Assembly (NCBI GenBank): GCA_004431415.1 | Contig: QPMI01000109.1 | Location: 83,606-147,605, forward strand | Origin: Cyanophora paradoxa CCMP329 | Lineage: Eukaryota > Plantae > Glaucophyta | Direction: 5' to 3' | Length of the DNA stretch: 64,000 nt | Part shown: in pieces, positions 19,501-64,000 of the stretch | Position numbering within the stretch: the stretch's first letter is position 1 | How the letters are laid out: every line of letters starts with the position of its first letter | Translations under genes and position numbers: made by a program | The notes under the pieces: generated by a model | Databases searched by the model: none | Told to the model about the DNA's origin: nothing | What the model saw: the letters and a program-made list of their open reading frames with translations, nothing else

Positions 19501-20079
19501 CTCGCCGTCCTCCTCCAGCGCACCCTCGACTGGAGGCGCCCGCCCGCCCCGCCCGCCCCGGCCGCCTCGCCGCGCGCCGCTGACGGGGCCGGGGGCAGCG
19601 GGGCGACGCCGGTGCTGGCGCACATGCTGTACGGCCTGGCGGGGGGCTACGCGAGCCTCGGGGACGCGCGGCGCGCCGCCTCCACCCTCCGCGAGGCCCT
19701 CAAGGTCCCGCCCGCCCCGCCCCGCCCCGCCCCGCCCCGCCCTGCCCCCGCCCGGCCCCGGCCCGAGCGGAGGCTCCCGCCCGCAGGAGTACGGGCGCTT
19801 CCCGGGGACCTTCCCGGGGGACCACCCGCGCGTCCTCGCCGCCCGCGCCGCCCTCGCCGCCTGCTCGGCCGCCTGCTCGCGCTCCCCTCCACCACCTCCG
19901 CCTCCCCTCCGCCTCCCCGCCTCCTCCCTCTCCCCGCCCCGATCCCTCCCCATCGCCCCGGGCTCCAGCTCCGGCGCCAGCCCCGCCTCCCTCCCCGCCC
20001 CGAGCCCCGCCCGCCTGCCCCCGAGCCCGCCCCGGCCCCCGCCCCTCTCTTCAACTTTCGCTTCTTTAGATCTAGTTAA
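16584..20079 (+). CDS. Hypothetical spliced protein with C-terminal TPR-like helices
   Basis: Helical exons such as LAHMLYGLAGGYASLGDARRAASTLREALK followed by a DHP motif; start, end and exon structure uncertain. Confidence 0.45.
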
Positions 20080-21216
20080 GTACTATAGTTAGTTAAAAAT
20101 ATCGGTTCGAGCTCGCCCGCGCTTCAATTTTAAGCTCGCTCCGGATCCTTAAGCGCTAGCTTCAAAATGTGCAATTGATCATGACTCATAATTAGCCTAG
20201 TAGCTGAAATCATGATTTCAAGTTTAGCCTAGTATACGTAGCATGAATTAGTAAGTCATGATCATGATATCGATATTAATGGGTGTCTACGTTGATATTA
20301 ATATTGATCATGATCATGAATATTTGGATACGCATGCGCATCGCTTGCTGTCGCCGCGGCGCTGCAATCCGATGATCGTCAAATTGCAATGCCTTCTATA
20401 CATATGCATCCTAATCGATATCTATCCTACTTTAACTATCCTGCAATGCCGATTGGGCACGCTCTACTAGGCTACTCAGTGCGTGCCTACTACTATATAG
20501 CTAGGCTACATCTTAGTTGGCAAAAATTTTGGCTAACTCCTGAAGATCGAAGGTCGAACAATCGCAAGCTTAAGATGCTTCCTATAGCTATAGGAACTCG
20601 AGCTCCTAACCAACTAGCTACTTTCCCTACTGGGCCACATTGCACTGCATGGGCTACGTACTACGGTATACGTCACTCAGTATGCGCACACAATATACTT
20701 TGATACTATAGCTATACGTGATAATAATTCGGTTTGGATAAATGTATATATATAGTATTCTATCTATCACTCAGTGACTCTCAAGGTATAGATTGAAAGA
20801 AATGGAACTGTTCTCAGGGCTCGCAGGCGACCTATCTTTCTAGATCTGTATACTGGGTAGCTAGCGCTGTGCTGGCATCACTCTGGTCGTGCGTCATCCA
20901 CATGCGTGGATCCGACGGTCAAAAACAACAGAAAACACCCGCAGACGTCTACATCGAGCGAAACAAAATTGGCGAACTGCGCATGCGAAAATGGCATCGC
21001 ACGGCAAGTTCAGATGCCCTTCGACAGCGGCGAAAAAAAGAATCGAAAAGAAGCTGCTGTATATGAATGTGTGGCACGAGGAGTAGATATAGTAGTAGCT
21101 ACTCATCATCACGAGCTCGAGTTTGCGTAGTTGCCATATATGCGTTGAGCAGATGGATCAGTCCGCCTTGATACCCGCGTCGGCGAAAATCTAATCGCGG
21201 TCGCGATCGCGCCGGG

Positions 21217-49160: not shown

Positions 49161-49786
49161 CGGCCCGCCGGCCGACTGGGAGCGCCGAGCAGCGATGGCT
49201 GAGCAAGAGGCAGCTTTAATCCTTGACCTGCCGGGTGCGCGTTCGAAAATTCGTTCGATCAGTTCCACGGCCCGCCGGCCGACTGGAAGCGTCGGGCAGC
49301 GATGGAGGAGCACGAAGCTGCTTCGATTCGCGACCTGCCGGGTGCGCGCTCGAAAATTCGTTCAGCTCCACATGTGTACAGCGCCTGCCCGGCCCGCCGC
49401 GCCGGCCGACTGGAAGCGTCGGGCAGCGATGGACGAGCGCGAAGCTGCGCATACTTCGATTCTCGACCTGCCGGGTGCGCGTTCTAACTCCGCTACGAAC
49501 TCCGCTAGCGCTCGGCATTTCCGCCGCCCCTTCGCTTCGAATTCCGGCTCATGATCATGATCACATTCGAATTCTTACGTATGTGTACTTTTTCTTTCGA
49601 TTCTGCGTCACAGATGATGTGATCTTGCTGGTGATGGAGAAAGTGGCGGCGGTCAGCGGGACGAAAGCCGCTCTGCTGGGCCTGGCCTCGGCGTGGGGCC
49701 GCTTTCGAGTGCTCGCGTACGGGGAGAGCTCCAAGCTGTTCGATGAGCCTGTTTTCGTCGGCGAAAGTTCTCCGGAGGAGCTCGAG
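49161..49786 (+). pseudogene. Truncated F-box gene with a triplicated first exon
   Basis: Three tandem units (ATG at 49195, 49302, 49429) each end GAC CTG CCG G|GTGCGC in the same phase. One acceptor (CAG 49611-49613) gives ...DLP-DDVILLVMEKV...LASAWGRFR. No further exon found before the AT-rich junction at ~49960. Confidence 0.7.
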
Positions 49787-50242
49787 GTGAGCCTGCAGAT
49801 GTTCGTGGGATATCGATCATTTTCGTCGCGATCGGCGATCTTTCCTCGTGCCACGGTGGCCCGCGGCCGTGCGTGGCCGCGGCCGGCGCCGCTTCACGAC
49901 GCTCCCAGCCCTAGACTCTTCTTTAGGATTCGAAGATTCCTGCCTCCGCCCACGAGCTAGCTGCTTTAATTTATTTTAATTTTATAAGAATTTGTTTTGG
50001 TGAATTACCGGCACACGTGGGCGATATATTCCTATATAGGTGGGCCTTTGTGAAGCGTTGAGCTCTCGAGCTTGCCCCTTCGCTGTCAATGCATTGTTAA
50101 CCCTCGGAGGTTGCATGAGTCACGCGTCGCGGAGGTTTGGGTGTTATATTGCGATCAGGTACACGCTGCACTAACAGGGGGGCTAGCACTAACCGACGCG
50201 GGGAGTAACAGCCGGTGTACCCCTCGGGGGGCCTCCCGGCCT

Positions 50243-51022
50243 CTAACGATGCTCAGGCTCTAACTGAATGCTGTACCCCCCGCTGTTACTGCCCGAACCT
50301 TCCGAACTTGCGTAATTCGGCCTCGCCCTGTACCCAGTGGCTGGTGTCGTCCATCCATTCGCGTACCTCCCTCTGACGCTTGAGTGACTCACGCTGCTCG
50401 GGGTAGGGGAGGGGGGCCTTCGAGGCGGGGTGGGGAAGGGGTACGGTGGCAAAATTCAGCCACTCGGGGGTATGCCGAATTCGCCGTGAACGATCCTCTG
50501 CGGTGTGAAATACCGGTCGCTGCTCACGGCCAAGTGGAAGAACGCGCTCCTGAGCCCGGAGAGGAAGCGTGGTTGCATGAATGGCTGCTGGAGGGACTCG
50601 TCGCGCCAGGGGGCTACGAAATCAATGATACGCTGCTGTACCTGCGCGGGCAGGGCAAGGATCTGGCTCTTGCGGTTCGCAAAGGCCGTCCACAGCGCTT
50701 GCAGGTCGGCCCAATCGCCGTTCAGATCCCTGCGTTCGCGCCTCAGGTACGATCTCGGGTTCTCTGTCATACCCATCAAGCCCGCGGCCCTGATCATCTC
50801 CCTGTCCGGGAGCTCTCGCTCGTCGTGGAATTCGTCTCTAATCCAGCGCACAAGGTAGAGCACGCGCTCCATGAAGTTCTCCGCCGGCGAGCCGCCCCCT
50901 GAGGACGTGCGCCTCCCCTCCAGCACTGCGTTCGCATCCTCCAAGTCCACGTTCCGCTGTCGAATCTCCCCGTCCAGGTCGCCGTTGTTGTACAGCACGT
51001 CGGACTCGCGTGTTCGCGCCAT
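50243..51022 (-). CDS. Element ORFan A with an in-frame TGA at 50456-50458
   Basis: MARTRESDVLYNNG...LQALWTAFANRKSQILALPAQVQQRIIDF...GIPPSG*ILPPYPFPTPP; the frame stays open to 50243. Confidence 0.6.
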
Positions 51023-51056
51023 GCTCGCGGCTCGGTGAGAATTTATACCTGTACCC

Positions 51057-51787
51057 CTACTCGCGGTCGGGGTATCGAGGGCCTGGCAGCCTCGCGCGCT
51101 TCCGCAGCTCGGCCTCGTCTGGCGACCAGCTCGTCGGATCATTGCTGTACTCCATCCACCTGCGAATCTGACCCTCCCGCAGTATCTCTTGGCGCTGCTC
51201 CGCCGTGGGCGCCGGTGGGCCGTACGGTGGGCCGGCAGGCGTCAGTTTTCTATACTTGTATCTCTTGAACCGTTCTTCCATATTGTCTTGTTCTTCGTCC
51301 CATCCTTCAGGGATCAAATCCGATGGGGGACATAGGGTACCACCCATTCATCTTCCTTGTTTTTGGCGTGGTGAACGAAGCCTTGGAAGTAGTGCTTCAA
51401 AATATTGAGCGGGCGATTGATGATCTCCGTGCGAGTGCCCGCATTCAGGAAGAGATCCAGTATAACTCTCTGAACGTCTTGGGGCAGGTAGGTCATGGGG
51501 CTCTTGCGCGAGCCGAACGCCCACCAGAGCTTGCGAAGTTCATCGCGAACCCTGCCCATGTCGTCCCTGTGTTCGATTTCGTACACCGGCGGCTCATACG
51601 TTCGGATGTCTACCCTGGACCCGAGGCCTCTGCGTGCCACATCGCGCAAATACGTCGCAGCCATGCCCCCGTCTCGCATTGTATTGGGGATCTCTTCTTT
51701 CACCCAGCCGATCAGCCCGTTTACCTGCTTAGTGTAATCTCGGATGTACCCCGATAGCGGTGGGAGGGTAGTCTGATTATCAGACAT
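51057..51787 (-). CDS. Element ORFan B, paralogue of A; probable frameshift in a C5 run at 51325-51329
   Basis: MSDNQTTLPPLSG...LRKLWWAFGSRKSPMTYLPQDVQRVILDL; one extra C joins ORF 51314-51799 to ORF 51057-51347. Confidence 0.6.
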
Positions 51788-51837
51788 ATGCATTCGCACA
51801 CATCAAGAAATTCTAAACGCTACTGCGAGGCTAAGCT

Positions 51838-52503
51838 ATGCATACCGATACAGATTGCGAGACTTGCGAGAACTTACAACAGGGGAGCGCGGCGTGGCAC
51901 GCGGCGCGCCGTGAAAAACTAACTGCATCTAATTTTGCGGCTGCGTGCGGTATAAACCCCTGGAAATCCAGGGCCCGCCTGTGGGCGGAGCTAAGCGGGA
52001 TAGCGGAGGAAAACAACTTTGACAACCCTGCCCTAACCTACGGGCATGACTATGAGCCCTTCGCGGTCTCTCTCTACAAAACGTTGAACAATAACGTGGA
52101 CGTGCAACATACTGGATTGCACGAACATAAGGAACTGCCCTTCCTGGCGGGGAGCCCGGACGGGCTAATCGGAAACGATCGCATACTCGAAATAAAATGT
52201 CCGTACAAACAAGAACTCTACGACAAGGTTCCTACCTATTACATGACGCAGCTGCAAGGACTTTTAGACATAACGGGCCGCGAGTGGGCCGAACTTTTTT
52301 GCTTCACGCCTCTGCGCGTGCAACCGTGGTACGTCAGACGGGACGAGAGGTACATCGAGCTCATGCGGCGGTGCTTACATCTATTTTGGATGCACGTGAA
52401 GGCTGGAACTCCGCCCGAGCCCTACAGCGATCGAATGAAGTCAGAGAACCTCAGCGAGGAGCAGGCGGCGCTGCGCGAGTTTAAGTCGTACGCCCTCCTC
52501 TAG
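51838..52503 (+). CDS. YqaJ-like viral recombinase / lambda-type alkaline exonuclease
   Basis: QGSAAWHAARREKLTASNF, YGHDYEP, LAGSPDGLI, LEIKCPY, YYMTQLQ; intact and intronless. Confidence 0.93.
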   Translation: MHTDTDCETCENLQQGSAAWHAARREKLTASNFAAACGINPWKSRARLWAELSGIAEENNFDNPALTYGHDYEPFAVSLYKTLNNNVDVQHTGLHEHKELPFLAGSPDGLIGNDRILEIKCPYKQELYDKVPTYYMTQLQGLLDITGREWAELFCFTPLRVQPWYVRRDERYIELMRRCLHLFWMHVKAGTPPEPYSDRMKSENLSEEQAALREFKSYALL

Positions 52504-52751
52504 TGTCCGACCCTCTCAGATATTAATTTAAAGATCTGGGAGGGTCGGGACACGTCTCTTGGTCAGACTACTTATGTACGCCCTCCTCTAGTGTCTCGAC
52601 CCTCTCAGATATTAATTTAAAGATCTGGGAGGGTCGGGACACGTCTCTTGGTCAGACTACTTATGTACGCCCTCCCTCCTCTAGTGTCCGGACCTTTCCA
52701 ATAATCTATAAAGAAAGTAGGGAGGGTCCGGACACGTCTCTTGGTCGGACT
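52488..52751. repeat. Three tandem ~88-bp units, each with a ~50-bp AT-centred imperfect palindrome
   Basis: TGTC(C/TC)GACCCTCTCAGA-TATTAATTTAAAGA-TCTGGGAGGGTCGGGACA at 52504-52552 and 52592-52641; diverged third copy at 52685-52734. Confidence 0.93.
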
Positions 52752-53028
52752 CACCGTAGCTTGGTGTAGCTCAGGCCCAGGCGGGAAGGCGAGTCTGCAA
52801 TGAATCAGACCCCACAGGATTTGGTTGAGCTGCTCTTTGCAGGGGGCAGGAAGGCGGCCGCAGAGGGCTAGGGAGACTAGATCTAATTAGTAATCCCACA
52901 CCGCGCATGTGCAAGCGACAGAGAACGAAGTGAGTAAATGCAGATCGATGATACGGCAATCATGAGTTGTTCAGAAAAGGTCGGGACACATAGAGAGTGC
53001 ATGCCCTCACTCTCGTCCGCCCTCGCAA

Positions 53029-53077
53029 TGTCCCGACCCTCCCAGATCTTTAAATTAATATCTCAAAAGTCGAGACA
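53029..53077. repeat. Same palindrome family, opposite orientation
   Basis: TGTCCCGACCCTCCCAGATCTTTAAATTAATATCTCAAAAGTCGAGACA; an extra half-site lies at 52971-52988. Confidence 0.9.
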
Positions 53078-53178
53078 TTCATTGATCATATGCATGACGT
53101 CACTTGAATTCGCACGTTCGTATTTACACACTGGCACGCGCATCCCGTTCGCGAAGTCCACACTGTGACATCCGACAA

Positions 53179-56100
53179 TCACACGCGCCTGTGAATGAGA
53201 GCATAGCAGTCGGAGAAAACGTTGTAAACCTCTGGGAAGCTTGGCGCCATGCCTGCCCTTGCCTGCTTAGCCTGGCGCTCTACTGCGTCGTCGAGCATGT
53301 CTTCCTCCCACGTGATGTAGCGTCGCTTTCGGCTGCCCATTTGCCCTCCGTCCGCGTCGGAGAAAGCGCGTCTCACTCCGAGGTACTTCTCCAGCAGGTA
53401 CTTGATGACTTGCCAAGACTGCTGCGAGAGCCGCTTCTTCTCACCGTCCGCTGCATCGAAGCGGGGCGCGCGCTCGTCCAGACTCTGCAGAGCCGCGTAC
53501 GCCTCCCGACCCTCCGGCGACGCCAGGGCCGCGTAGGCTTCGTCCGACCACAGAGCACGCCCCGCGAGCTTTCCATACCCCCGCCAGCCGAAGAGTTTCT
53601 TGAACAGCGCGACGACCTTCGATACCTTGAGGCGCTCAGCAGTAGGCACGATCTCGGCAACGTCCGCGCCATGCTTCAGCACCAGCGTGACCACGGCAGT
53701 GAGCGGGATGGAGTAGAACGAATCCCACATCCAGGCGACGTCTCCTTCGGTCAGCTCGCTCGGATCCTTGGCCAGGAACGCGGCGATCGACGTGCGAGCA
53801 AGCGAAGCAACCTTCTCGATGTCCAGCTTAGCGAGAGACTCGCGGGACTGCCTCCAGGCCAGCACCGTGCTCCACAGATCGACGGGCTCCAGCGCGCCCG
53901 CCTCCAGCACGCTCCTGATCTCGCGCAGCCGCTGCTCCTTCTCCTGCTTCGGTCCGCTCGGGTTTTGATCCTCCGTGACTTGCACGTTCATCAGCGCGCA
54001 GGTCGACATCAGCCGCAGGCGCGCTGCCACTGCGAGGCGCCGAGTGGGCATGCCGGCGCGGCGGCTCCCGCGGTGGCTAGCCTTCAGGTCCAGGTAGCGC
54101 TGCATGTCGTCCGAGCTCTCGTCGTCGTCGCTCTCACGCCAGTGCGCAGCCGCCGCGCCGACCGCAACCGAGGGCGTCCGGTTCTTGCGCACGGCGACGA
54201 GCAGGTGCTCCCGTCGGGCGTGCTGCGTTTGCGCAGCCTTCTGACTCGAAACAGCAGCTGCACGATGTCGTCCGCCTCCAGCTGCGCGGGCTCTGCCTGG
54301 AACACGCCGTAGACCTTGTCAAAGTGCGCGTCCGAAAAGTCCACGCCTGCCCCGAGCGCGGAAGTTGCGATGAGCACGTCGCAGGCCTTGTACGCGCCCT
54401 CCTCAGACACATCGATCGACACGATGCGCACTGGGCCCTCGTTCGTGAAGCGCACGCTCTTCTCCTTGGCCTGCCCAACGATGAGCCCGATCGTGAACGG
54501 TGCGCCGCTGCCGTCCTCGGCCCTGCCTCGAGCTGAGTCACGTACTGAGCGCCGCCCAGGCTGAGCTGCTCCAGCGCCTGCTTCGCAATCTTCTCCTGCA
54601 GCTCGATCGCCTTGGCCGGCGTCTCCGCGATGATCATGGCCCGCGAGCGCCCAGGTCGGCACTGCACCATGATGTCCGCCTCGACGTGCGCCGGGCTGTC
54701 TGACACGCGCATCTTCCAGTCGCAGGTGCGATGCGAGTTGTACAGGAGCCCCAGGCGCGCCCCGACCTCCTGCGCCGACTCTGCCAGGTACGCGAGATCG
54801 ACCGACCGAACGAAGCCGTCCATCGCCACGATGCGCGATGCCTTCATCACGCCGCGCCATAGGCCCACGCAGCGCGCGTTTCGAGGCACTGACCGCATAC
54901 CTAGGTGCAGGCCGGTGGGCTCGAGGGTGCCGCTCGAGGTGAGGTGCTTCGTGAGGGAGGAGAGCTCGTCCAGCACGACCAGTAGCGGCGCCGTCGACCA
55001 GCCCTCCCAGTCCTCGAGCACCTTGTGCAGCGAGTCCCATGTGATGACGACGCACCTGCACTCCTCATGGCGGAAGCCCCACTTGCCATGCGATCCCTTT
55101 GAGCTCTCCGGTGGCTTCTTGATGTCCATGTAAAGCACGGCGTCCTTTGACAACTCCGCAGCATCAATGCGACGCTTGAGGTCGCGGGAGAAGGCCCGGC
55201 GGCAAGTCACGAGGATCACTCGCCAGCCGCCTGCGAGGGCCGGGTCCAGGTACGCATCGATCAGCGCCTGCGTCTTCCCCGTGTTGAGTCCCGAGCAGAT
55301 GACGTCGACCTGCGGCTGAGCGGATCTCGGGTTCTGCTCCAGCGCCCCGAATGCGGAGGTAAGGATCTTGCACGAGAGGTGGCGTTCATCCACTGCATTG
55401 ACGCAAGCCTCCAGGCCCGTCGACTCGAGCGCGATCAGGAGGGAGGGGAGGGCAATGTCGAAGGCGACAGGCTGCGAGGGATCGGTCACATAGCGGGTCT
55501 GTGCCACGCTGCCCGACTCCCCTCCGGTCCCCTCCCCCTCGAGCTCGACTTCAATACCGTGCGCCTGGATGGAGATTCGAGCCGCCGGCGCCCCCGGCTG
55601 ACTCCCGCCCAGGACGAGGGTGATGGACCCGTCGGGCTCGACTCCAAGGTGCTGAACGCGGCGGGCGTCGTGCAGGCCAAGGTCCGCGCGCAGCTCTGCC
55701 CCCGCCTTCCAGATCTCGTCCCTCACCGCCTTGTTCTTGCGCAGGCGGTCCAGGAGCCGCTCCAAGGCCGGCAGGCTTGGGCTCGAATCCAGGAGAGCGC
55801 CCGGCTCCGGGATGGGCTTAGCGCGGGGCGCCGAGCTTCTGGATGGAGTGGGGAGGAGCTCCGCTCGCGGCCCGGGCGCCGGCCCCCGCAGAACGTAGCC
55901 CCCCGTGCCATCCACACCGAGCTCCAGGCCGCTCGAGCTCCCAAAGAACCATGCCATGAGATCGCAAGCCTCCGGGCTCTGTAGGACGTAGGCAGCCTTG
56001 AATCCATTATCCAAGGGCGAGAGAAAGTGAAGCCTCCGAACTTGGTTGCAAAGGCGCAGGCTGCCGCGGTGCTCGTCTCATCCTCGGCACCCGAGAAGTG

Positions 56101-56298
56101 GCTGGGGGTGATGCAGGGCGGGTGGAAGACGCAGAAAGCCGTCCCCAGGGTCGGGCTGCAGGCCTTCTGGACTTCGACGAGAGGGAATCGAACGAAAAAG
56201 CTGCACTCCTGCTCGCTCAGATCTATCTGCTGTACCCCGGGCCCGGGCATACGGGCCAGGAAGGCGTCGACGTCGAGAGACACGCGTCCGGTTGCCAT
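53179..56298 (-). CDS. UL9-like (Herpes_ori_bp family) SF2 origin-binding helicase; about three frameshifts (~56015, ~54520, ~54190)
   Basis: ICSGLNTGKT (motif I), ILVTCRRAFS, VVITWDSLHKV, VVLDELSS, IVAMDG; next frame LIATSALGAGVDFSDAHF and QLLFRVR. Motif order matches UL9-type helicases. Confidence 0.82.
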
Positions 56299-56388
56299 GG
56301 TCGTCTCTCTATAGCTAGGCTTGGAAAATTCTAGATCTACTAGGCTAGTCAACGTCTGTTGGCTAGCTATAGTCGACGTCTGGACTGC

Positions 56389-56524
56389 TGTCTCGACCTT
56401 CTGAGATATTAATTTAAAGATCTGGGAGGGTCGGGACAGGCTCTGGTCCGTCTGGATCCGGACTGCTCAGCGGCTGTCTCGACCTTCTGAGATATTAATT
56501 TAAAGATCTGGGAGGGTCGGGACA
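56389..56524. repeat. Two more palindrome copies (56389-56438, 56475-56524; period 86)
   Basis: TGTCTCGACCTTCTGAGATATTAATTTAAAGATCTGGGAGGGTCGGGACA occurs twice. Confidence 0.93.
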
Positions 56525-57580
56525 GGCTTTGGTCCGACCTTAAGCGCTCAACTAGACCCGGTTGACACCGTCTTGATCTCTCCTTCTTGGCGCAGCGGAC
56601 GATGTGACGCGCAGACCGTCGGCCCGGCGGACGGGGAGGCGCGCGCGTAGAACTTCGGAAGCGCTAGCCCCTTGCTTGACCGAAGCTTAGAAAGTTTTGA
56701 GCGCACGTGAATGCGACACGTGTAGAGAGAAGGCAGAGCGCGCCGGAGCTAGCTTGCGCGGCCGAGCGCTCGACCGCCTTTGCTCCTAAGCTCAGAAAGT
56801 TTTGGGCTCACGCGGTTGCTCCACGTGTTTCGACTCAAAACACAGTACCCCAACCCGAAAAAAAGCGCCCGGGCAGCGCATCTCGCAGCGCCCGGGCCCA
56901 GCGCTCCTTGCAGCACTTGCCAGAGGCACTAGCTTGCATTCCGCTCAGCCCGGAGAGCCGCCGCCTCGCTCCTTTCGATTCGGAGGTGCGCCTCACTTCG
57001 CAACCTCTTTCTCCGCACCACGGCTAGCTCCGGACCTCAGATTTTGGGCGCTGGAAAGCTCTCTCGACGCCGCACTCACGCCGCCACGCGCAGGGTCGCT
57101 CGCGCCGGCCGCGGACCTTCGAAAGCTCGATGGCGCCCGAGCCGGAGCACTCCGCCGCATCCCGCAGGTGCCAGCTCGCTCTCTTGCCGCTCTATCCCTT
57201 GCATTTAGCACCTAGAACATGCCCCGCAACCTCGCGCTCGATTCGCCCGCGTCCGCTGACATTTGGTCTCTGAGCAGGTGCCGAGATTGGCCGCCGCGCC
57301 TTCCGCAACTCGAGCCGACGTTCGCGGCGACTTGCGCACGCTTCTAGATCTCGTTCTCAAGCCCGCGCATCGATTCGGCGGCTCCGGCTCGCCTCCCCGC
57401 GCCTCCAGCCCCGCGCCCCACACCCGTTCTTGTCCTAGCTAAGCCCTCCCTTGTCCGCGGCCAGTCGCGGGCTACGCGCATCGCGGATAGCATCAGTGGA
57501 GCTACGTTTCAGCGCTGGACGCAGGCCCGCCCGCCCAATCCCTCCCACCTCCCGCTCGCAGCACGCTCACTGGGCCGCAG

Positions 57581-58823
57581 GCAGCTTCGCGGGGAGCCGC
57601 TGGATTCGAAGCCGCGCACCTTCCCCGCCCGTCCCGACGTCGTACGCGCTAACGTCGCCCGCGCCGCAGGTGGCCGCCAGGCCTCCTGCATCCAGGCCTT
57701 CGAGCCGGCGTGGCTGCGGGCGCAGCGCCTCGGCTTCTGGCAGGAGACGGCCTCCTGTCCCCTCACCCGCTTCATCATCGCCCACTGCGCCGTCGACCCC
57801 ACCACCTACGTCGCCGCCCCGAACACGGAGGGCTACATGACGAGCGTCGCGGGCATCGTCGAGTACATCGCGCGCACGGAGGGCCCCGACACCTCCGCCG
57901 CCGTCGGCGCCGACATCGAGAACGGCCGGCTGGACGAGACCCTCGCCGGCTTCGGCTCCTGGTGCCGCCCCTACTCCTACAAGCTCGGCGGCGTCTGGCA
58001 GACCTACATCCGCGGCATCGTCCCCAAGGCCCCGCTCTCCCTCGGCGAGAGCCAGCCGGCGCTGGAGGCGATCGCGATCCCCGTCGCCCAGTTCAAGGAC
58101 CCGGCGCCCGACGTCGGGCCCTTCCTCGTCAAGCCCCACACCAAGGGCAAGGGCAAGCGCACCCGCAACTCGGCGCCGGCCTTCCTCCCGCCCCAGCCCC
58201 CCGCCACGGCCCCCAGCAGCGCCCCGGCCAGCAGCGCATCGACGAGATGCTGCCGCGCCAGGTCCGGCCCCGCGTACCCCCGCCTTCCCTCCCGTACCCC
58301 CCTCCCCCCGCCCCCTCCTGATCCAAGGGCAGGGTACCCCGACGAACGGCGGCGCGGGCCCGAGCGGCTACGGGAGCTCGGCCTCCTCCGCGAGCGCCGA
58401 CGGCCCCAGCCCCCTCCCCGGCCCCGGCGCCGTCCTCACGCGATCCAGGGCTTCGGGGCCCAGCAGGAGGCCGAGCGGCGGGCGCTGGCGGCGCGCCAGG
58501 CGCGCGAGGCGGAGGAGCGGCGCCAGGCCCTCTGGGCCCAGCGCCTGCAGGCCACCATCGCCTTCCGCGCCGAGCTGGACTCCGGCTTCCGCGCCGGCCA
58601 GATCGCCGGGGCGGAGGCCTCGGAGCGCTGGCGGGCGTTCGAGGCGGAGTCGGCGGGGCTGGCGAAGGGCCTCGGCTACAGCTACCGGCGCGTGCCCGTG
58701 CTCAAGGACTACGCGTCGGCCGCGGCGCGGGAGGCCTCGCGGGCGGAGATCGACGCGGCGGAGGAGCAGGCGGCGCGCGAGGAGGCCGAGGACAACGCGC
58801 GCTTCCGGCACCTGCACCACTGA
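57581..58823 (+). CDS. Element gene with host-type spliceosomal introns; C-terminal coiled coil; start not resolved
   Basis: Exon ...CPLTRFIIAHCAVDPTTYV...GVWQTYIRGIVPK; branch GCTAAC plus acceptor CAG at 57667-57669; GT-AG intron 58262-58332. Confidence 0.55.
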
Positions 58824-58872
58824 GGCCCCGAGGCGGTATTTTTTCTCAACCCTCCCTCAATTCGGTCCCGCG

Positions 58873-59124
58873 ATGGCCTTCGAAGCTTATCCTGCCCACT
58901 ACTCGCTAGGAGCGCTGGCCGCGACCCTCACCTGGCTCCTCGGCGGCACCCCCACGGCCTCGGCGGTCATAGGCGTGGGCTTCGGCTACGCCGCCAAGTC
59001 CCTCTACGCCCCGGCGGCGCCTCGCAGGCGGCGGCCGGCATGCGCCCCGCCGGGCGCTAACTTTTCAAAGTTCATTCTCCCCTCCCCTTTTCCGAGTTCC
59101 GAGTCCGTTGGCGTTCCCTTTTAA
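58873..59124 (+). CDS. Small hydrophobic ORFan
   Basis: YSLGALAATLTWLLGG...AVIGVGFGYAAK; upstream TTTTTCTCA motif. Confidence 0.55.
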   Translation: MAFEAYPAHYSLGALAATLTWLLGGTPTASAVIGVGFGYAAKSLYAPAAPRRRRPACAPPGANFSKFILPSPFPSSESVGVPF

Positions 59125-59154
59125 ATTTTCTTCATTCTCGTTACACGTTCGAAG

Positions 59155-59634
59155 ATGTCGAGCGCGGTAGAGAAGCTGCTGTGCACCGTGTTCAAATCGG
59201 ATTCGCGATGCAGCAAGATCGGCGAGGCGGCGAGGGCTAAGGGCGGGGCGGCGGCGGAGGGGCCCAGGGTGAAGGCGGCGGATCCCGCGCCGCCGTCGCT
59301 GAAAACGATCAAGGGGGCGGGCAAGGGCAGGAGCGTGGGGGCGCTGCCCCTCGTGGCGATCGCGCCGGGGCAGAGGGAGGCGGCGCACGCGGCGACGGCG
59401 GCGCTGGCCGCGCGGCGCCAGGCGGAGGCCTACCCGTGCCTGGGCCGGGGGCTGCACCCGCCGGCCGACCGCCCCTACGCCGTGAGCGCCTACTTCGACG
59501 AGGCCAACCGGCTGAGCTGCCAGGAGCTGTGCGACAACCGCATGCGGCGCGCCGTGGACGGGCACCTGCCGCTGCTGGTGGCGCTGGGCGGCTCGCTCCT
59601 GATGGTCTGGTACCTGCGCGGCCTGGTCATTTAG
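59155..59634 (+). CDS. ORFan with Cys residues and a C-terminal TM anchor
   Basis: Ends LPLLVALGGSLLMVWYLRGLVI; tightly packed between its neighbours. Confidence 0.7.
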   Translation: MSSAVEKLLCTVFKSDSRCSKIGEAARAKGGAAAEGPRVKAADPAPPSLKTIKGAGKGRSVGALPLVAIAPGQREAAHAATAALAARRQAEAYPCLGRGLHPPADRPYAVSAYFDEANRLSCQELCDNRMRRAVDGHLPLLVALGGSLLMVWYLRGLVI

Positions 59635-59660
59635 ATAGTTTTTCGAAGTCTAGGTCAAAG

Positions 59661-60062
59661 ATGGGCTGGGTGGACGCCGTGCTGACCAAGGTCTTCGGAC
59701 CGAAGAGCGCGCAGCCGCCGCCGAGCTTCAACCTGGCCGCGGCGATCAGCACGACGATCGAGCGCAAGAACAACGAGCTCATCCTAAAGAACGACGGCAA
59801 GCTTCCCTGGGCCGACGTGGCCGCGGGCGCACTCGGCAGCACGCTGACGGGAATCGATCGGACGGGCGCCGCGGGCGTGAAGGTCGGGCAGGCGGTTGCG
59901 GCCGTGCCGGAGCTTGCGATGAAGGGCTGGCACTACGCCAAGATCGCCGCCGGCGTCGCCGCGGTGCTCCTTGCGATCTGGCTCGCGTGGCAGCTGCGCG
60001 GCGCCTACCAGGGCGCGCGCCTGCAGAGCGCCCAGCTCGACTATTTTCTAAAGGCTAGGTAA
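59661..60062 (+). CDS. ORFan with an MG N-terminus and a TM helix
   Basis: MGWVDAVLTKVFG...IAAGVAAVLLAIWLAWQLR. Confidence 0.7.
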   Translation: MGWVDAVLTKVFGPKSAQPPPSFNLAAAISTTIERKNNELILKNDGKLPWADVAAGALGSTLTGIDRTGAAGVKVGQAVAAVPELAMKGWHYAKIAAGVAAVLLAIWLAWQLRGAYQGARLQSAQLDYFLKAR

Positions 60063-60074
60063 AGCGAGCGAACC

Positions 60075-60447
60075 ATGCGCGGCGGCTCTTCCCCCGTGTT
60101 TCCTTCGCTGAGAACCCGGTGGCGAACGCAGTCGCCCCTACCCCCTGGAGCCCGGAGTGAAGCTGGAGCGTGCGAACGCAGTCTCCGTCAAGAAGGCCAA
60201 GCGCACGCTGGCGCTGGAAGTCCCGGTCGCGGAGGATACGGAGAAGGTTGCATTCAACAAGCGCAAGACGTACAAGGCGATACGCGAGGGACAGCTGCTG
60301 CCCACGGACTCGGTTCCCGGGCTGCCGGGCACCACGGCCGGCGAGCTCCTAGTGCGCAACCTGCGCCTGCAGTACGTCTCCCGCCTCCGCCGCTCCAAGG
60401 CCAAGAAGGCGCGCCTGGACTCGGGCGATAGCAGCTCTAGCTCGTAG
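60075..60447 (+). CDS. Small basic ORFan (probable frameshift near the 5' end)
   Basis: ATG at 60075 follows ATTTTCTAA; main frame VKLERANAVSVKKAKR...RLRRSKAKKARLDSGDSSSSS. Confidence 0.5.
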
Positions 60448-60563
60448 GGCTCTGTACTGTTGTATTCAATGCCTTTACCAGTTCCTGTTCCTATCCCAGA
60501 GCACGACTCGGGTGAAGGGCACGGTCATAGCGAACATGAACTCGGCGAACTTTGCAAAGTTCA

Positions 60564-60757
60564 TCAGGGTTCCCAGGCGGGGATCCTCCAGTAGATCGCC
60601 TCGCGCAGCGCCTCGTAGACGCGCATGAGGGAGCGCTCGTTCTCCGTCGCGAAGGCGTCGCCGGGCTCGTCGGGGTCGGGATCCGTGAGCTCGGAGTACT
60701 CGTCCGAGCTGCCCGCGCTCTCGGCACCTGCGGCGGGTCGGGCGAGGGGTCGGGCAT
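60564..60757 (-). CDS. Small acidic ORFan (probable frameshift)
   Basis: ATG at 60757; acidic frame SSDEYSELTDPDPDEPGDAFATENERSLMRVYEALREAIYWRIPAWEP. Confidence 0.45.
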
Positions 60758-60805
60758 TCTTTGCTGGTAGAAGGGTTAGAAGAGGGACCAGAAAATCACT
60801 AGCAA

Positions 60806-61147
60806 TCACGGGCGCCGGAACTCCATCGAGTCGCCGCGCCAGTACTTGTTGCCGGAGGCGAGCAGCTTCATCGGCTCGCCCGTCGAATCGTGCTTCCAGG
60901 CCTCGCCGTCCCAGAGGGCCGTGCCGCCGTCCTCTAGCTTGAGGCGGTGGCCCGGCTCGAGCCGGTTGCCGTCGAGCATGCGGCCGGCCATGAGCGCCAG
61001 GTCCCACTCGGTGAGGTTGCGCTGCTCTGCGGGGGTGAGGCCGCGCTCGACGCGCTCGGGCTGGCGCGCCTCGCGCTCCATGCGGCTGAGGCCTACCAGG
61101 AAGAAGATGGGCAACGCAAAGGCCATGAGATCTAGCAGGGCCTCCAT
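60806..61147 (-). CDS. ORFan with an N-terminal hydrophobic anchor
   Basis: MEALLDLMAFALPIFFLVGLSRM...ALWDGEAWKH; upstream CTTTTCTAA. Confidence 0.65.
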   Translation of the reverse strand: MEALLDLMAFALPIFFLVGLSRMEREARQPERVERGLTPAEQRNLTEWDLALMAGRMLDGNRLEPGHRLKLEDGGTALWDGEAWKHDSTGEPMKLLASGNKYWRGDSMEFRRP

Positions 61148-61156
61148 TGGGCAGAC

Positions 61157-61444
61157 TTAGAAAAGGTTCCGGACCAGGCCCGAGAGCTGCGGGCCCAGGC
61201 GCCGGGCGGCGTAGTAGAGCGCGGCCGCCGCCGCCGCAAGGATCAGAAGGCGCGGCGGGCCGCGCGCCGGCTCCTCCAGGGTCAGGTCCACGGTCTCCGG
61301 CCCGCGCGCCGGAGCCGCCAGGATCTCGGGCTCGGAGCAGAGGGACTTGGGCCCGCGGCGGCGGCGCTGCTTGGGCGCCGAGGCGGCGGCGGTGAGAAGG
61401 TCCTCAGGCTCCTGCTTGATACCTGCGCAATCGGTGAAGTCCAT
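61157..61444 (-). CDS. ORFan with a C-terminal TM
   Basis: MDFTDCAGIKQEPEDL...PKQRRRR...TVDLT...LLILAAAAAALYYAARR. Confidence 0.65.
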   Translation of the reverse strand: MDFTDCAGIKQEPEDLLTAAASAPKQRRRRGPKSLCSEPEILAAPARGPETVDLTLEEPARGPPRLLILAAAAAALYYAARRLGPQLSGLVRNLF

Positions 61445-61512
61445 GCTTGCTGGGTACCTTGGAAAATTGTGGGAGGCGTCCGGAGTGTGCGAACGTAGCT
61501 CCAATGGGATTT

Positions 61513-62174
61513 GCGTCATTTACGTCCGCGTCATTTACGTCACGGAGTTTGCCGGCGACTCGGGACTCGGGCCCAACTTCTCCCGGTAAGTTCGAGACTT
61601 GAACTCGGCGGGGTACCCCCGGTGTCCTAGTGTCCTAGTGTCCTAGTGCTACTAGCTAGGTGGTATCGATATCTAGCTAGCTAGCGCTAGCGCTTGCTTA
61701 ATTAATTAACCTGAAGGGTCGCGTCATTTACGTCAGCGTCATTTACGTCACGGAGTTTGCCGGCGACTCGGGACTCGGGCCCAACTTCTCCCGGTAAGTT
61801 CGTCACGACCAGTAGCTACTAGTACCGCTAGTACTACGTAGTACTACTTAGTACTACTTGGTACTACTTAGTACTACTAGCTTAGTACTAGTAGCCACCG
61901 ATACTGGTACAGCTTTTATAGATTTAAGCATTCATTCAATGTGAATAACGATAATAGTAATAATAATAACGATAAGTAATAGGGATACCCTATTTTTCCA
62001 AGTCTCGAACTTACCGGGAGAAGTTGGGCCCGAGTCCCGAGTCGCCGGCAAACTCCGTGACGTAAATGACGCTGACGTAAATGACGCGACCTTCGGTAAC
62101 CTCCGCAACCCTTCAGGTAAATGTCAGGTAACTTCAGTTGAGTTAATTAAGCAAGCGCTAGCTAGCTAGATATC
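61513..62174. repeat. Inverted-repeat control region
   Basis: An ~85-bp unit occurs at 61513-61601 and 61721-61802 and inverted at 61999-62091. Extended arms 61668-61802 / 62007-62174. The spacer holds AGTACTACTT repeats and an AT-rich tract; (GTGTCCTA)3 at 61622-61645. Confidence 0.92.
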
Positions 62175-62594
62175 ACAGCTCTACCTTGCCCAAGTTGATG
62201 GTATCTAGCAGGGCCTGCTCCTCCAAGTCTGCACCGCCGCCGCCGCCCAGCGCTAGCGCTAGCTCGATACCGCCTCCGGCCTTGATCTCCCTTGGCTCCA
62301 GCCACCTGAGGGGCTCAGGCCACCTCCTCCTGGTGAAGCCGGTATCGTTGCTCTTGTCCAGCTTGAGGTAGCGGTAGGGCGCCGGCGCCGGCCAGTCCGG
62401 CCTGTGGCCGCTTGCCTCCTTGGCTATGTCCTTGGCCTACGCGGTCGCAGGTCCGCCTTGGCCTTCGCCCTCTGCAAGGGCCCAGCGCCTTGAACTTCGG
62501 TGCCTTGGTCGCCGGCAGGGCCTTCGGCTGGGGCTTCACCGCCTTCGGCTGCTGAGGCCTTAGCTGCTTCGATTTCGGCATACTTCTTGCTCAT
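62173..62594 (-). CDS. ORFan (frameshift near 62430); start overlaps the upstream stop as ATGA
   Basis: MSKKYAEIEAAKASAAEGG... and ...APYRYLKLDKSNDTGFTRRRWPEPLRWLEP...INLGKVEL*. Confidence 0.5.
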
Positions 62595-62818
62595 AATGAG
62601 AAAAGCGCCTCGAAGTCGGCCTTTATCTCCTCCTTGGTCCAGGATGTCACCTGATCCGGGTCACCTGAGAACGGCGCATCGAACGCCACGTGGAGCGATT
62701 TGCAGGCCTGAGCTATCATTGGCTCGGGCCAGGCCAGCTCGATCAGCTGAAGGTAGATGTTCAGGGCCTTGTCGAGCTTGGCGCCCTGAGAGACTAGCTG
62801 GGAGATAGCGGGCTCCAT
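62591..62818 (-). CDS. Small helical ORFan
   Basis: MEPAISQLVSQGAKLDKALNIYLQLIELAWPEP...FEALFSL; upstream ATTTTCTAA. Confidence 0.6.
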   Translation of the reverse strand: MEPAISQLVSQGAKLDKALNIYLQLIELAWPEPMIAQACKSLHVAFDAPFSGDPDQVTSWTKEEIKADFEALFSL

Positions 62819-62901
62819 GTACAGCAGAGCTTTAGAAAATGGCGCCAAGTCCAAGTCCTTTTTTACGGGCGAGGCCTGGCCGGGGCCAGGGCCGAGTCCC
62901 A

Positions 62902-63013
62902 ACTCCGTGACGTAAATGACGCTGACGTAAATGACGCGGACGTAAATGACGCCGAATTTTCAAGTTGCCCTCACCTGAAACTCAGCTGAGCGCTCACCTG
63001 ACCCTCACCTGAA
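62902..63013. promoter_or_regulatory. Putative divergent promoter: three GACGTAAATGACG repeats then CTCACCTGA repeats
   Basis: Lies between divergent ORFs; shares AACTCCGTGACGTAAATGACGCTGACGTAAATGACGCG with the 61.5-62.1 kb unit. Confidence 0.6.
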
Positions 63014-63077
63014 CGGCCTCAAAACCGCAGCCCCGCCGCGCCCTCTCCTCACACTTCAAAGCCAAGAGAAATCAAGA

Positions 63078-63304
63078 ATGTGCATCCCACGTACTTCACC
63101 TGCTGTCTCACCTTCGGCATCTTCGCATACGTCATATACGACGATGAGTTCGACCGAAACACGTTCTACTTCTGCAAGCTCCTTCGCGACATTTCGTCGG
63201 AGCACCGCAAGGGCGATGAGTATGATTGGATTCAACTGCTCCCCCTCAAGAACGAGATCGTACTGTGGAGAGAGAAGTGCAATTGTAGGCAGGTTCAAGA
63301 TTAG
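63078..63304 (+). CDS. Small ORFan with a hydrophobic N-terminus (start or frame uncertain)
   Basis: PTYFTCCLTFGIFAYVIYDDEFDRNTFYFCKLL... Confidence 0.4.
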
Positions 63305-63462
63305 CTCGATTCGTGTAGCCGTCGTAGAGGATCTGATGGTGAATTGAACACGTGTTTTTACCTGAATCACCTGAGCGCTCACCCGAGGTCAGCTGAAGTC
63401 GGGTGGGGCGCCTTAAATATTTTCTAGCGCTAGGCTGAAGCACACTCTAAGCTAACGCAAAC

Positions 63463-64000
63463 ATGGCCACCGTCCGCAACGCCAACGAGATCGACCCCGC
63501 CAAGCTCGCCTTCGAGATCGACGCCAACGGCCGCATCAGGCCAAGTACGACGGCCTGCAGGGCCTCATGATGTACGCGCCGCCCATGGTCACGATCAACC
63601 CGTGCATCAACACAGAGCAAGGCAAGGCGTGGAGCGACGAGAAGAAGGCCTTCGTCATGGAAGAAAACGGCGGATTTTACACGCTGGACCTCACCGATCT
63701 CAGCGCCGTCGACGGCCAGACGAACCCAGCCGCGGACGAGTTCCTCAAGCTGCTGGAGGCCCTGGACGCGAAATTCTGCGAGTTCGGGCAGCAGAACCAG
63801 GCCAAGCTCAAGGTCTCGCCGGCGCTCCCTCTCCAAGGATCAGATCTTCGGTGCTGCAGACGCCCAGCGTGCGCATCAAGGTCGACAAGGAGTCGGCCAG
63901 GCCTTCTACAAGTACCTCAACATGCGCATCCGCACCCAGACGATGGCGGGCAAGCGCAAGAACCGTGCCCGTCGTCGACATGTCCAACTACCTCATCACC
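63463..64000 (+). CDS. Probable viral single-stranded DNA-binding protein (OB-fold, DUF2738-like); frameshifted and partial
   Basis: MATVRNANEIDPAKLAF.../GFYTLDLTDL...DEFLKLLEALDAKFCEFGQQNQ...FYKYLNMRI; the FxxxLxxLDxx...N helix pattern resembles large-DNA-virus SSBs (recognised by eye). Confidence 0.5.

What the first reader, a model, noticed from the sequence alone, without database searches (positions are those of the whole stretch)
49960..64000. Endogenous DNA virus with a herpes-like initiation kit: UL9-type helicase, alkaline exonuclease, SSB and palindromic origin candidates
Seen: at least 14 kb of compact ORFs with their own cis-motifs, sharply unlike the intron-dense host. Known: UL9-like helicases, YqaJ exonucleases and OB-fold SSBs occur in large and medium dsDNA viruses, and exonuclease plus SSB/annealase form two-component recombinases (lambda Red, HSV UL12/ICP8). 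Inference: an integrated, probably nucleus-replicating virus of a poorly described lineage; most of its ORFs match nothing I recognise. No capsid, polymerase or integrase is visible here, so it cannot be classified from this window.
Basis: partly seen in the sequence, partly recalled or inferred. Interest (0 to 1): 0.88.

Follow-up and report, generated by a model that had tools for sequence, protein, structure and literature searches.

The report
Algal virus with swappable herpes-type initiator
A virus-like DNA element inserted in dozens of copies in the genome of the alga Cyanophora paradoxa carries a herpesvirus-type helicase flanked by origin-like palindromes; this cassette likely replaced an older helicase gene whose stump still lies beside it, which would make the element a direct test of how small DNA viruses exchange their replication machinery.

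Summary
Real, and richer than reported. The element begins at 50,032, not 49,960; other contigs join different flanks there, and read depth jumps about 40-fold. Its genes recur in order on 67 named Cyanophora paradoxa contigs. Confirmed: YqaJ exonuclease, a primase-less UL9-like helicase, a giant-virus-type T7-like SSB, and AT-centred palindromes on both sides of the helicase. Most frameshifts look like assembly errors. New: in 6 of 32 gene models of the 57.7-58.8 kb ORF from other copies, that ORF is the tail of a P-loop NTPase with SF3-like motifs (motif-level only). Here the NTPase body is gone and the palindrome-bracketed UL9 cassette stands in its place; three UL9 alleles have different junctions. 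A six-intron non-coding RNA runs antisense through the helicase. No capsid, HUH, VLTF or integrase lies in these 14 kb and the rest could not be fetched, so family membership stays open; it works most like a mriyavirus-grade nuclear virus. Endogenous small viruses in this alga and replicase swapping are in print. The scan noted sibling elements on other contigs; sequence look-ups found no note on this one.

The parts
50032..50061 (.). Left terminus of the element; begins with an 8-bp palindrome
   Evidence: loose ends with other flanks join at 50032 in 3 DNA runs and 1 RNA-type run; depth rises from 73 to about 3000 (X1)
50456..51022 (-). Orphan ORF (~188 aa), paralogue of 51314-51793; variable between copies
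   Evidence: 31% identity over 98 aa, E 5e-8; no Pfam/PHROG hit; DNA joint 50743-50981 in some copies
51057..51347 (-). Orphan ORF, 96 aa
   Evidence: no family
51314..51793 (-). Orphan ORF, 159 aa, paralogue of 50456-51022
   Evidence: an F-box-like look was not supported by Pfam
51838..52503 (+). YqaJ / lambda-type alkaline exonuclease, 221 aa, catalytic motifs intact by eye
   Evidence: PF09588 E 1e-29; phrog_434 E 2e-39; TIGR03033 above cut-off
52488..52751 (.). Three tandem ~89-bp units, each an imperfect palindrome with an AT-rich centre (origin candidates), left of the helicase
53029..53069 (-). Inverted copy of the palindromic unit, just past the helicase stop codon
   Evidence: weakest fold, z -2.9
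53179..56298 (-). UL9-like SF2 helicase (~1040 aa) without AEP primase motif or zinc finger; three frame breaks in this assembly (near 56020, 54500, 54230)
53036..56431 (+). Spliced antisense RNA with six GT-AG introns (53952-54001, 54788-54904, 55250-55298, 55359-55414, 55559-55612, 55682-55744); no ORF over 147 aa; ends not determined
   Evidence: joints in X15, five also in X16, none in DNA runs X1 and X4
56378..56541 (.). Two more palindromic units, upstream of the helicase start
57678..58823 (+). C-terminal remnant of a P-loop NTPase (SF3/D5-like by motifs) that is fused to its NTPase body in other copies; has its own ATG at 57837
58873..60447 (+). Four small conserved ORFs (83, 159, 133, ~120 aa); two have a strongly hydrophobic segment, the last is basic
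60478..61147 (-). Spliced ORF (~190 aa in other copies) with an N-terminal hydrophobic segment; intron 60728-60799
61157..61519 (-). 120-aa ORF with a moderately hydrophobic C-terminal segment
61513..62174 (.). Large inverted repeat (86-89-nt arms, 99-100%) around an AT-rich loop, with tandem CRE-like 15-mers; second origin or promoter block
62176..62831 (-). One or two small orphan ORFs, broken by assembly indels
63078..63391 (+). Small ORF upstream of the SSB; two allelic types among copies
63463..64000 (+). T7-type OB-fold SSB of the Nucleocytoviricota kind (260 aa in other copies); runs off the window

Best explanation
This is the left 14 kb of a DNA element inserted in dozens of copies in Cyanophora paradoxa, likely a small nucleus-replicating virus of mriyavirus grade, whose palindrome-bracketed UL9-like helicase cassette likely replaced the front of an older helicase gene. 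Shown: a sharp terminus with different flanks, the high depth, conserved gene order, the three proteins, the palindromes, an alternative NTPase-fused form in other copies, three UL9 alleles, and the spliced antisense RNA. Inferred mechanism: the UL9-like protein binds the palindrome arms and, with the SSB, opens the AT-rich centre, as herpes simplex UL9 does at oriS (recalled). Because it has no primase motif, host primase and polymerases would copy the DNA. The exonuclease would resect ends and the SSB would help anneal them, so the many copies recombine, which would explain the allele mosaic and the cassette exchange. The antisense RNA, with CpG methylation, would hold the initiator down in the integrated state. 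Capsid and insertion genes would lie to the right of the window.
For: Terminus and integration: (depth ratios 40.8, 38.4 and 38.9 in X1, X2, X4). Genes on 67 distinct contig names, in conserved order by gene number. SSB of Nucleocytoviricota type. Helicase core matches UL9-like proteins while its N-terminus matches nothing in them. A primase-type hhDhD motif is in 8 of 10 relatives and a zinc-finger motif in 9 of 10, against 0 of 3 Cyanophora models. Alleles A and C are about 60% identical in the core against 35% and 43% at the ends. Swap: 6 of 32 models of the 57.7-kb ORF continue upstream into the NTPase form; 0 of those 6 lie on a contig with a listed UL9 model, against 15 of the other 26 (Fisher p 0.019); all 5 late-junction models lie on allele-B contigs. 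Mutually exclusive SF2/SF3 helicases, a T7-like SSB and a PD-(D/E)XK nuclease are mriyavirus traits (PMC11253617). The assembly holds 366 capsid hits (PMC10120064 supplement), and Mriyaviricetes regions are reported in a glaucophyte.
Against: No capsid, packaging ATPase, VLTF, HUH or integrase was found in these 14 kb, and the genome was not available. Only 1 of 6 published capsid contigs coincides with an element contig, which chance gives about 45% of the time if the assembly has about 700 contigs, an assumed figure. The SF3 label rests on motif order in broken gene models: Pfam, PHROG, NCBIfam, PDB, hhalign and shuffle tests were all non-significant, the fold failed (pLDDT 34.5), and only 4 of the 6 models show NTPase motifs. 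The UL9 contig lists are capped, so the exclusivity count is soft. Mriyavirus SF2 helicases keep an intact primase; this one does not. Origin function, DNA binding and repression by the antisense RNA are untested. Contig depth is no true copy number (range 28-116 across contigs).
Confidence: 0.58

Rival explanations
1. A capsid-less, self-copying mobile element or nuclear plasmid that integrates: the same replication kit and helicase swap, but no virion of its own.
For: No morphogenetic gene in 14 kb. No environmental relatives in IMG/VR or JGI metagenomes by protein or motif. Earlier unreviewed notes describe other capsid-less primase-helicase units in this genome.
Against: Several small conserved ORFs have hydrophobic segments, as virion membrane proteins do (recalled pattern). 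The element continues past the window. The host assembly is rich in capsid genes.
Confidence: 0.22
2. The UL9 cassette is itself a parasite: an origin-plus-initiator module that inserts into the resident helicase gene of a virus, cripples it and takes over its replication, or can loop out between its direct repeats.
For: The palindromic units are direct repeats on both sides of the gene. Three alleles have different junctions in the resident gene. One contig has two helicase models two gene numbers apart. Repeat-bracketed replicases are proposed to be mobile in polisuviruses (bioRxiv 10.64898/2026.10.13.758929).
Against: No NTPase N-terminal remnant is found left of the cassette, so this is replacement rather than clean insertion. 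No joint removing the cassette was among the rows shown (119 rows hidden). All UL9 contigs for which a neighbour could be checked also carry backbone genes.
Confidence: 0.12
3. A dead fragment of a giant virus, multiplied passively by segmental duplication.
For: SSB and helicase families are typical of Nucleocytoviricota. Methylated giant-virus regions are reported in C. paradoxa (PMC12344493). The window copy has frame breaks.
Against: One precise terminus joined to unrelated flanks. Most displayed indels are absent from short-read contigs. Near-identical proteins occur across many contigs, and the core is conserved between alleles.
Confidence: 0.05
4. Contaminant or chimeric join of a free episome to a host contig.
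For: DNA contigs reach only 29-30 letters past the junction, just under the tool's 31-letter bar.
Against: An RNA-type contig crosses the junction by 38 letters, and host-depth contigs run into the terminus in 3 of 3 DNA runs. 14 DNA runs hold 91-92% of the words of a host-plus-element stretch.
Confidence: 0.03

Closest known systems
Mriyaviricetes (Yaraviridae and 'Gamadviridae'; PMC11253617)
   Same: No polymerase seen, SF2 (UL9-like) and SF3 helicases as mutually exclusive alternatives, T7-like SSB, PD-(D/E)XK nuclease, mostly orphan genes; endogenous members reported in a glaucophyte (bioRxiv 10.1101/2025.04.19.649669).
   Different: Their SF2 helicase has an intact AEP primase, while this one has none. 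There SF2 occurs in Yaraviridae and the SSB in Gamadviridae; here they occur together. The swap is seen inside one backbone in one genome. HUH, VLTF2/3, RuvC and capsid are not seen in these 14 kb.
Polinton-like viruses / Polisuviricotina with mosaic replicases (bioRxiv 10.64898/2026.10.13.758929; PMC10120064)
   Same: Multi-copy integration in a protist, replicase turnover, and repeats bracketing a replication module.
   Different: The module here is a primase-less initiator helicase, not PolB, PolA or AEP. There is no depth sign of long terminal inverted repeats and no integrase in view. YqaJ plus a giant-virus SSB is not a typical PLV set (recalled).
Alphaherpesvirus UL9/oriS, UL12-ICP8 and LAT (recalled, except PDB/Pfam matches)
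   Same: Primase-less UL9-type helicase (PDB UL9 hits E 0.002), palindromes with an AT-rich centre, exonuclease plus SSB, and a spliced antisense RNA over a key gene.
   Different: The SSB is T7/NCLDV-type, the nuclease is YqaJ-type, and no herpes structural or polymerase gene is present. The helicase does not group with herpes UL9. Likeness of design, not membership.
ASFV F1055L / mimivirus R8-type AEP-UL9 helicases of Nucleocytoviricota
   Same: Nearest non-Cyanophora proteins among 1.84 billion representatives are mostly ~1000-1190-aa proteins with Herpes_ori_bp.
   Different: Best E only 1.6e-6; primase and zinc-finger motifs lost.

Membership tests
Mriyaviricetes | Double-jelly-roll major capsid protein and packaging ATPase | not testable with these tools
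   None in 50,032-64,000; no genome held; reference genomes not held
Mriyaviricetes | HUH endonuclease | tested here: inconclusive
   Not found in the 14 kb seen; the rest of the element was not seen
Mriyaviricetes | VLTF2/VLTF3, RuvC, Mriya_48/50/51 | tested here: inconclusive
   No Pfam hit in 27 element frames plus 1 flank ORF; Mriya profiles not available
Mriyaviricetes | SF2 and SF3 helicases mutually exclusive | tested here: inconclusive
   Pattern fits (0 of 6 against 15 of 26, p 0.019), but SF3 identity is motif-level only
Yaraviridae SF2_hel | Intact N-terminal AEP primase | tested here: not met
   No primase or zinc-finger motif in 3 of 3 models; hhalign matches only the helicase core
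Gamadviridae / Nucleocytoviricota SSB | T7-like OB-fold SSB | tested here: met
   through the 88%-identical homologue P0062
UL9-like (Herpes_ori_bp) helicases | Profile match and SF2 motifs I, II, VI | tested here: met
   27.4 bits against cut-off 20; hhalign 99.5%
YqaJ / lambda exonuclease | Profile match above cut-off | tested here: met
Polinton-like viruses | Terminal inverted repeats | tested here: inconclusive
   Depth of contig 50109-50280 is not double the interior, which argues against long TIRs; the other end was not seen
Polinton-like viruses | rve integrase or tyrosine recombinase; PLV capsid | not testable with these tools
   None in the window; remainder not available
Herpesvirales / Mirusviricota | HK97 capsid, terminase, family B polymerase | tested here: inconclusive
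   None in 14 kb; helicase on a 3.5-long branch outside all 73 other rows, quick tree only
Giant endogenous viral element (fossil NCLDV) | One or few large insertions without a shared precise end | tested here: not met
   Shared terminus at 50,032 with different flanks and about 40x depth

The most novel reading that the evidence does not exclude
The cassette is a self-contained herpes-style origin-plus-initiator module that has repeatedly taken over a small algal DNA virus by overwriting its primase-helicase. Each initiator allele would carry its own palindrome variant, and a spliced antisense RNA would act as a latency switch: a UL9/oriS/LAT-like control circuit evolved outside herpesviruses, with before and after states side by side in one culturable genome.
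Probability: 0.25. Interest if true: 0.82.

Novelty: new variant of a known kind. Interest (0 to 1): 0.62.

Why it matters
UL9-like proteins outside herpesviruses are known almost only as sequences, with no binding site. Here one sits between six copies of an obvious candidate site in a culturable alga, so origin binding can be tested directly. Replicase exchange among small eukaryotic DNA viruses has been inferred mostly from trees. This family appears to keep both states and the junctions, which would show how a swap happens. It also bears on how mriyavirus-grade elements enter, spread in and are silenced by a host genome without a known integrase.

Tried and rejected
No genome held. No RNA holder is listed on record; runs X15 and X16 are RNA by guess only. 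No close relatives in IMG/VR for YqaJ (one search gave one unrelated phage), SSB (62), NTPase form (123) or the 15-mer repeat, nor in JGI metagenomes for the palindrome (36) or SSB (64). Yaravirus and PEV2 records are not held. Both folds were unusable (pLDDT 44 and 34.5), so no fold search was run. The exonuclease-SSB complex gave no verdict. The F-box idea for the left-end paralogues was not supported. SF3 assignment by alignment was not significant. The helicase tree is a quick tree with the query on a very long branch; P0074, P0075 and P0085 were dropped for lack of the anchor motif and duplicates removed, leaving 75 rows. The link between a published capsid on tig00020936 and an SSB copy on that contig was rejected as chance-level. 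No Rfam hit; bacterial promoter scan empty and not pertinent. Short perfect palindromes are no denser in the element than in the host (16 in 14 kb against 69 in 50 kb), so only the long repeated units count. Look-ups of earlier findings by sequence found nothing. Notebook entry 4 misnames the contig of P0112; it is tig00000850.
Full report
Host and observation. Proteins of the element match EukProt entries labelled Cyanophora paradoxa. The flank holds intron-dense host genes (pirin, a glutamine amidotransferase, a weak Vut_1 hit). The three named proteins are real. YqaJ scores E 1e-29. The helicase passes the Herpes_ori_bp cut-off, hits solved UL9 chains at E 0.002 and aligns to 12 UL9-like proteins at 99.5% probability over the helicase core only. 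The SSB has no Pfam hit, but its 88%-identical metagenomic homologue falls among Nucleocytoviricota DUF5871/DUF2738 and T7-type SSB clusters by features and by structure (one source of evidence).

Integration and copy number. Short-read contigs hold 49,500-50,009 at single-copy depth and end 29-30 letters inside the element. Other contigs join unrelated, often AT-rich flanks at exactly 50,032, and an RNA-type contig crosses the junction by 38 letters. The first interior contig is 40.8, 38.4 and 38.9 times deeper than the adjacent host contig in three runs. Against all host contigs the range is 28-116, and the tool warns that depth is not copy number. Independently, gene models of the element occur on 67 distinct contig names, in the same order where gene numbers allow a check. 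Terminal depth is not double the interior, which argues against long terminal inverted repeats. Of the indels displayed (12 of 76 rows), most are carried at or near full depth, so the window's frame breaks there are assembly errors. Two of the three helicase breaks are read through in models from other copies (P0007, P0016); a one-gap contig covers the third.

The helicase cassette. The helicase lacks the primase motif found in 8 of 10 relatives and the zinc finger found in 9 of 10. It has no close relative among 1.84 billion representatives (best outside Cyanophora E 1.6e-6) and joins no group in a quick tree of 75 rows. Three alleles exist: this one, one about 87% identical, and one 40-50% identical. 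Conservation peaks in the motor core. Six palindromic units with an AT-rich centre flank the gene, four on the left and two on the right. That layout recalls herpes simplex oriS (from memory; not tested).

The swap. The 57.7-58.8 kb ORF has 31 homologous clusters, all with Cyanophora-style names, plus one more model. In 6 of these 32 it continues upstream into a different sequence. Four of the six show P-loop NTPase motifs in the order Walker A, Walker B, B', C, arginine finger, each model only in part; two show only the linker. The window's match to them stops at about 57,678. None of the six lies on a contig with a listed UL9 model, against 15 of the other 26 (p 0.019), and all 5 models with a later junction lie on allele-B contigs. 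One allele-C contig keeps more of the linker. I read this as replacement of the front of a resident primase-helicase gene by the UL9 cassette, more than once or with allele-specific trimming. Against this: the SF3 label did not reach significance in any profile, pairwise or fold test, the models are automatic and frameshifted, and the UL9 lists are capped.

Antisense RNA. Contigs of runs X15 and X16 skip six segments inside the helicase; five are seen in both runs and none in DNA runs X1 and X4. All six read GT..AG on the plus strand and none can be read CT..AC, so the RNA is antisense to the helicase. Its spliced form has no ORF over 147 aa. Contigs cannot give ends, level or the sense transcript. 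Whether it represses the gene or is cryptically spliced read-through is open.

Mechanism. Shown: integration, multiplicity, the proteins, the palindromes, the two forms and the antisense splicing. Inferred: initiator binding and melting at the palindromes with SSB help, synthesis by host enzymes in the nucleus, exonuclease-SSB recombination that shuffles modules among copies, and silencing in the integrated state. CpG methylation of repeats and viral genes in this alga is reported (PMC12344493; passages and section 9 read). How it inserts is unknown; the terminus is an 8-bp palindrome and no integrase is in view.

Comparison. It works most like a mriyavirus (PMC11253617; parts 1-4 of 7 read). 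Membership is not shown: capsid, ATPase, HUH and VLTF could not be examined, and the intact-primase feature of Yaraviridae SF2 helicases is not met. Already in print: 366 capsid hits in this species' assembly (PMC10120064; passages and supplement rows; the per-contig Table S5 is cut in the held copy and showed no rows for it); Mriyaviricetes regions in a glaucophyte (bioRxiv 10.1101/2025.04.19.649669; passages); a PLV-to-mriyavirus continuum (bioRxiv 10.64898/2026.06.19.733378; passages); and repeat-bracketed, exchangeable replicases, including another element of this assembly (bioRxiv 10.64898/2026.10.13.758929; passages and section 13). Nine paper searches showed no description of this element, its UL9 cassette or the antisense RNA. 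Preprint supplements and figures were not seen and may include it.

Verdict. A real, integrated, high-copy virus-like element; a new variant of a known kind. Interest 0.62. Confidence in the best explanation 0.58, limited by the unseen right part and the motif-only SF3 call.

Noticed in passing
window 49634-50069: A host ORF (108 aa) is covered by an RNA-type contig that runs 38 letters into the element terminus: the insertion lies in or just behind a transcribed 3' end.
   Followed up: partly
window 49161-49487: Host tandem repeat of 107 bp, about three copies, 550 bp left of the insertion.
   Followed up: no
window 52152-52248: RNA-type contigs over YqaJ differ from the window and from the DNA contigs shown at many third positions: the expressed allele seems to come from a different copy type.
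   Followed up: no
window 52509, 52740, 52846: Loose ends show other versions of the palindromic unit in other copies; they may pair with other helicase alleles.
   Followed up: no
window 61513-62953: A CRE-like 15-mer lies in sense orientation upstream of the 61519(-) and 63078(+) ORFs and inside the large inverted repeat: likely a promoter element that a host bZIP factor could read.
   Followed up: partly
P0062 (ENA, 3.4-kb contig): The only non-EukProt close homologue found for any element protein: SSB at 88% identity. It may come from a related element in another host or from the same alga.
   Followed up: partly
EukProt models on tig00000140, tig00000194, tig00020608: Two helicase models, two 57.7-kb-ORF models or two SSB models lie two gene numbers apart: local duplications or nested copies.
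   Followed up: no
window 20050-21200: AT-rich (45% GC) island dense in short palindromes inside the 70% GC host; looks like host intergenic DNA.
   Followed up: no
L005 (IMG/VR contig, 40,288 bp): A mriyavirus-sized contig with a long UL9-like gene; no hit to this element's other proteins in the 23.5 kb held.
   Followed up: partly
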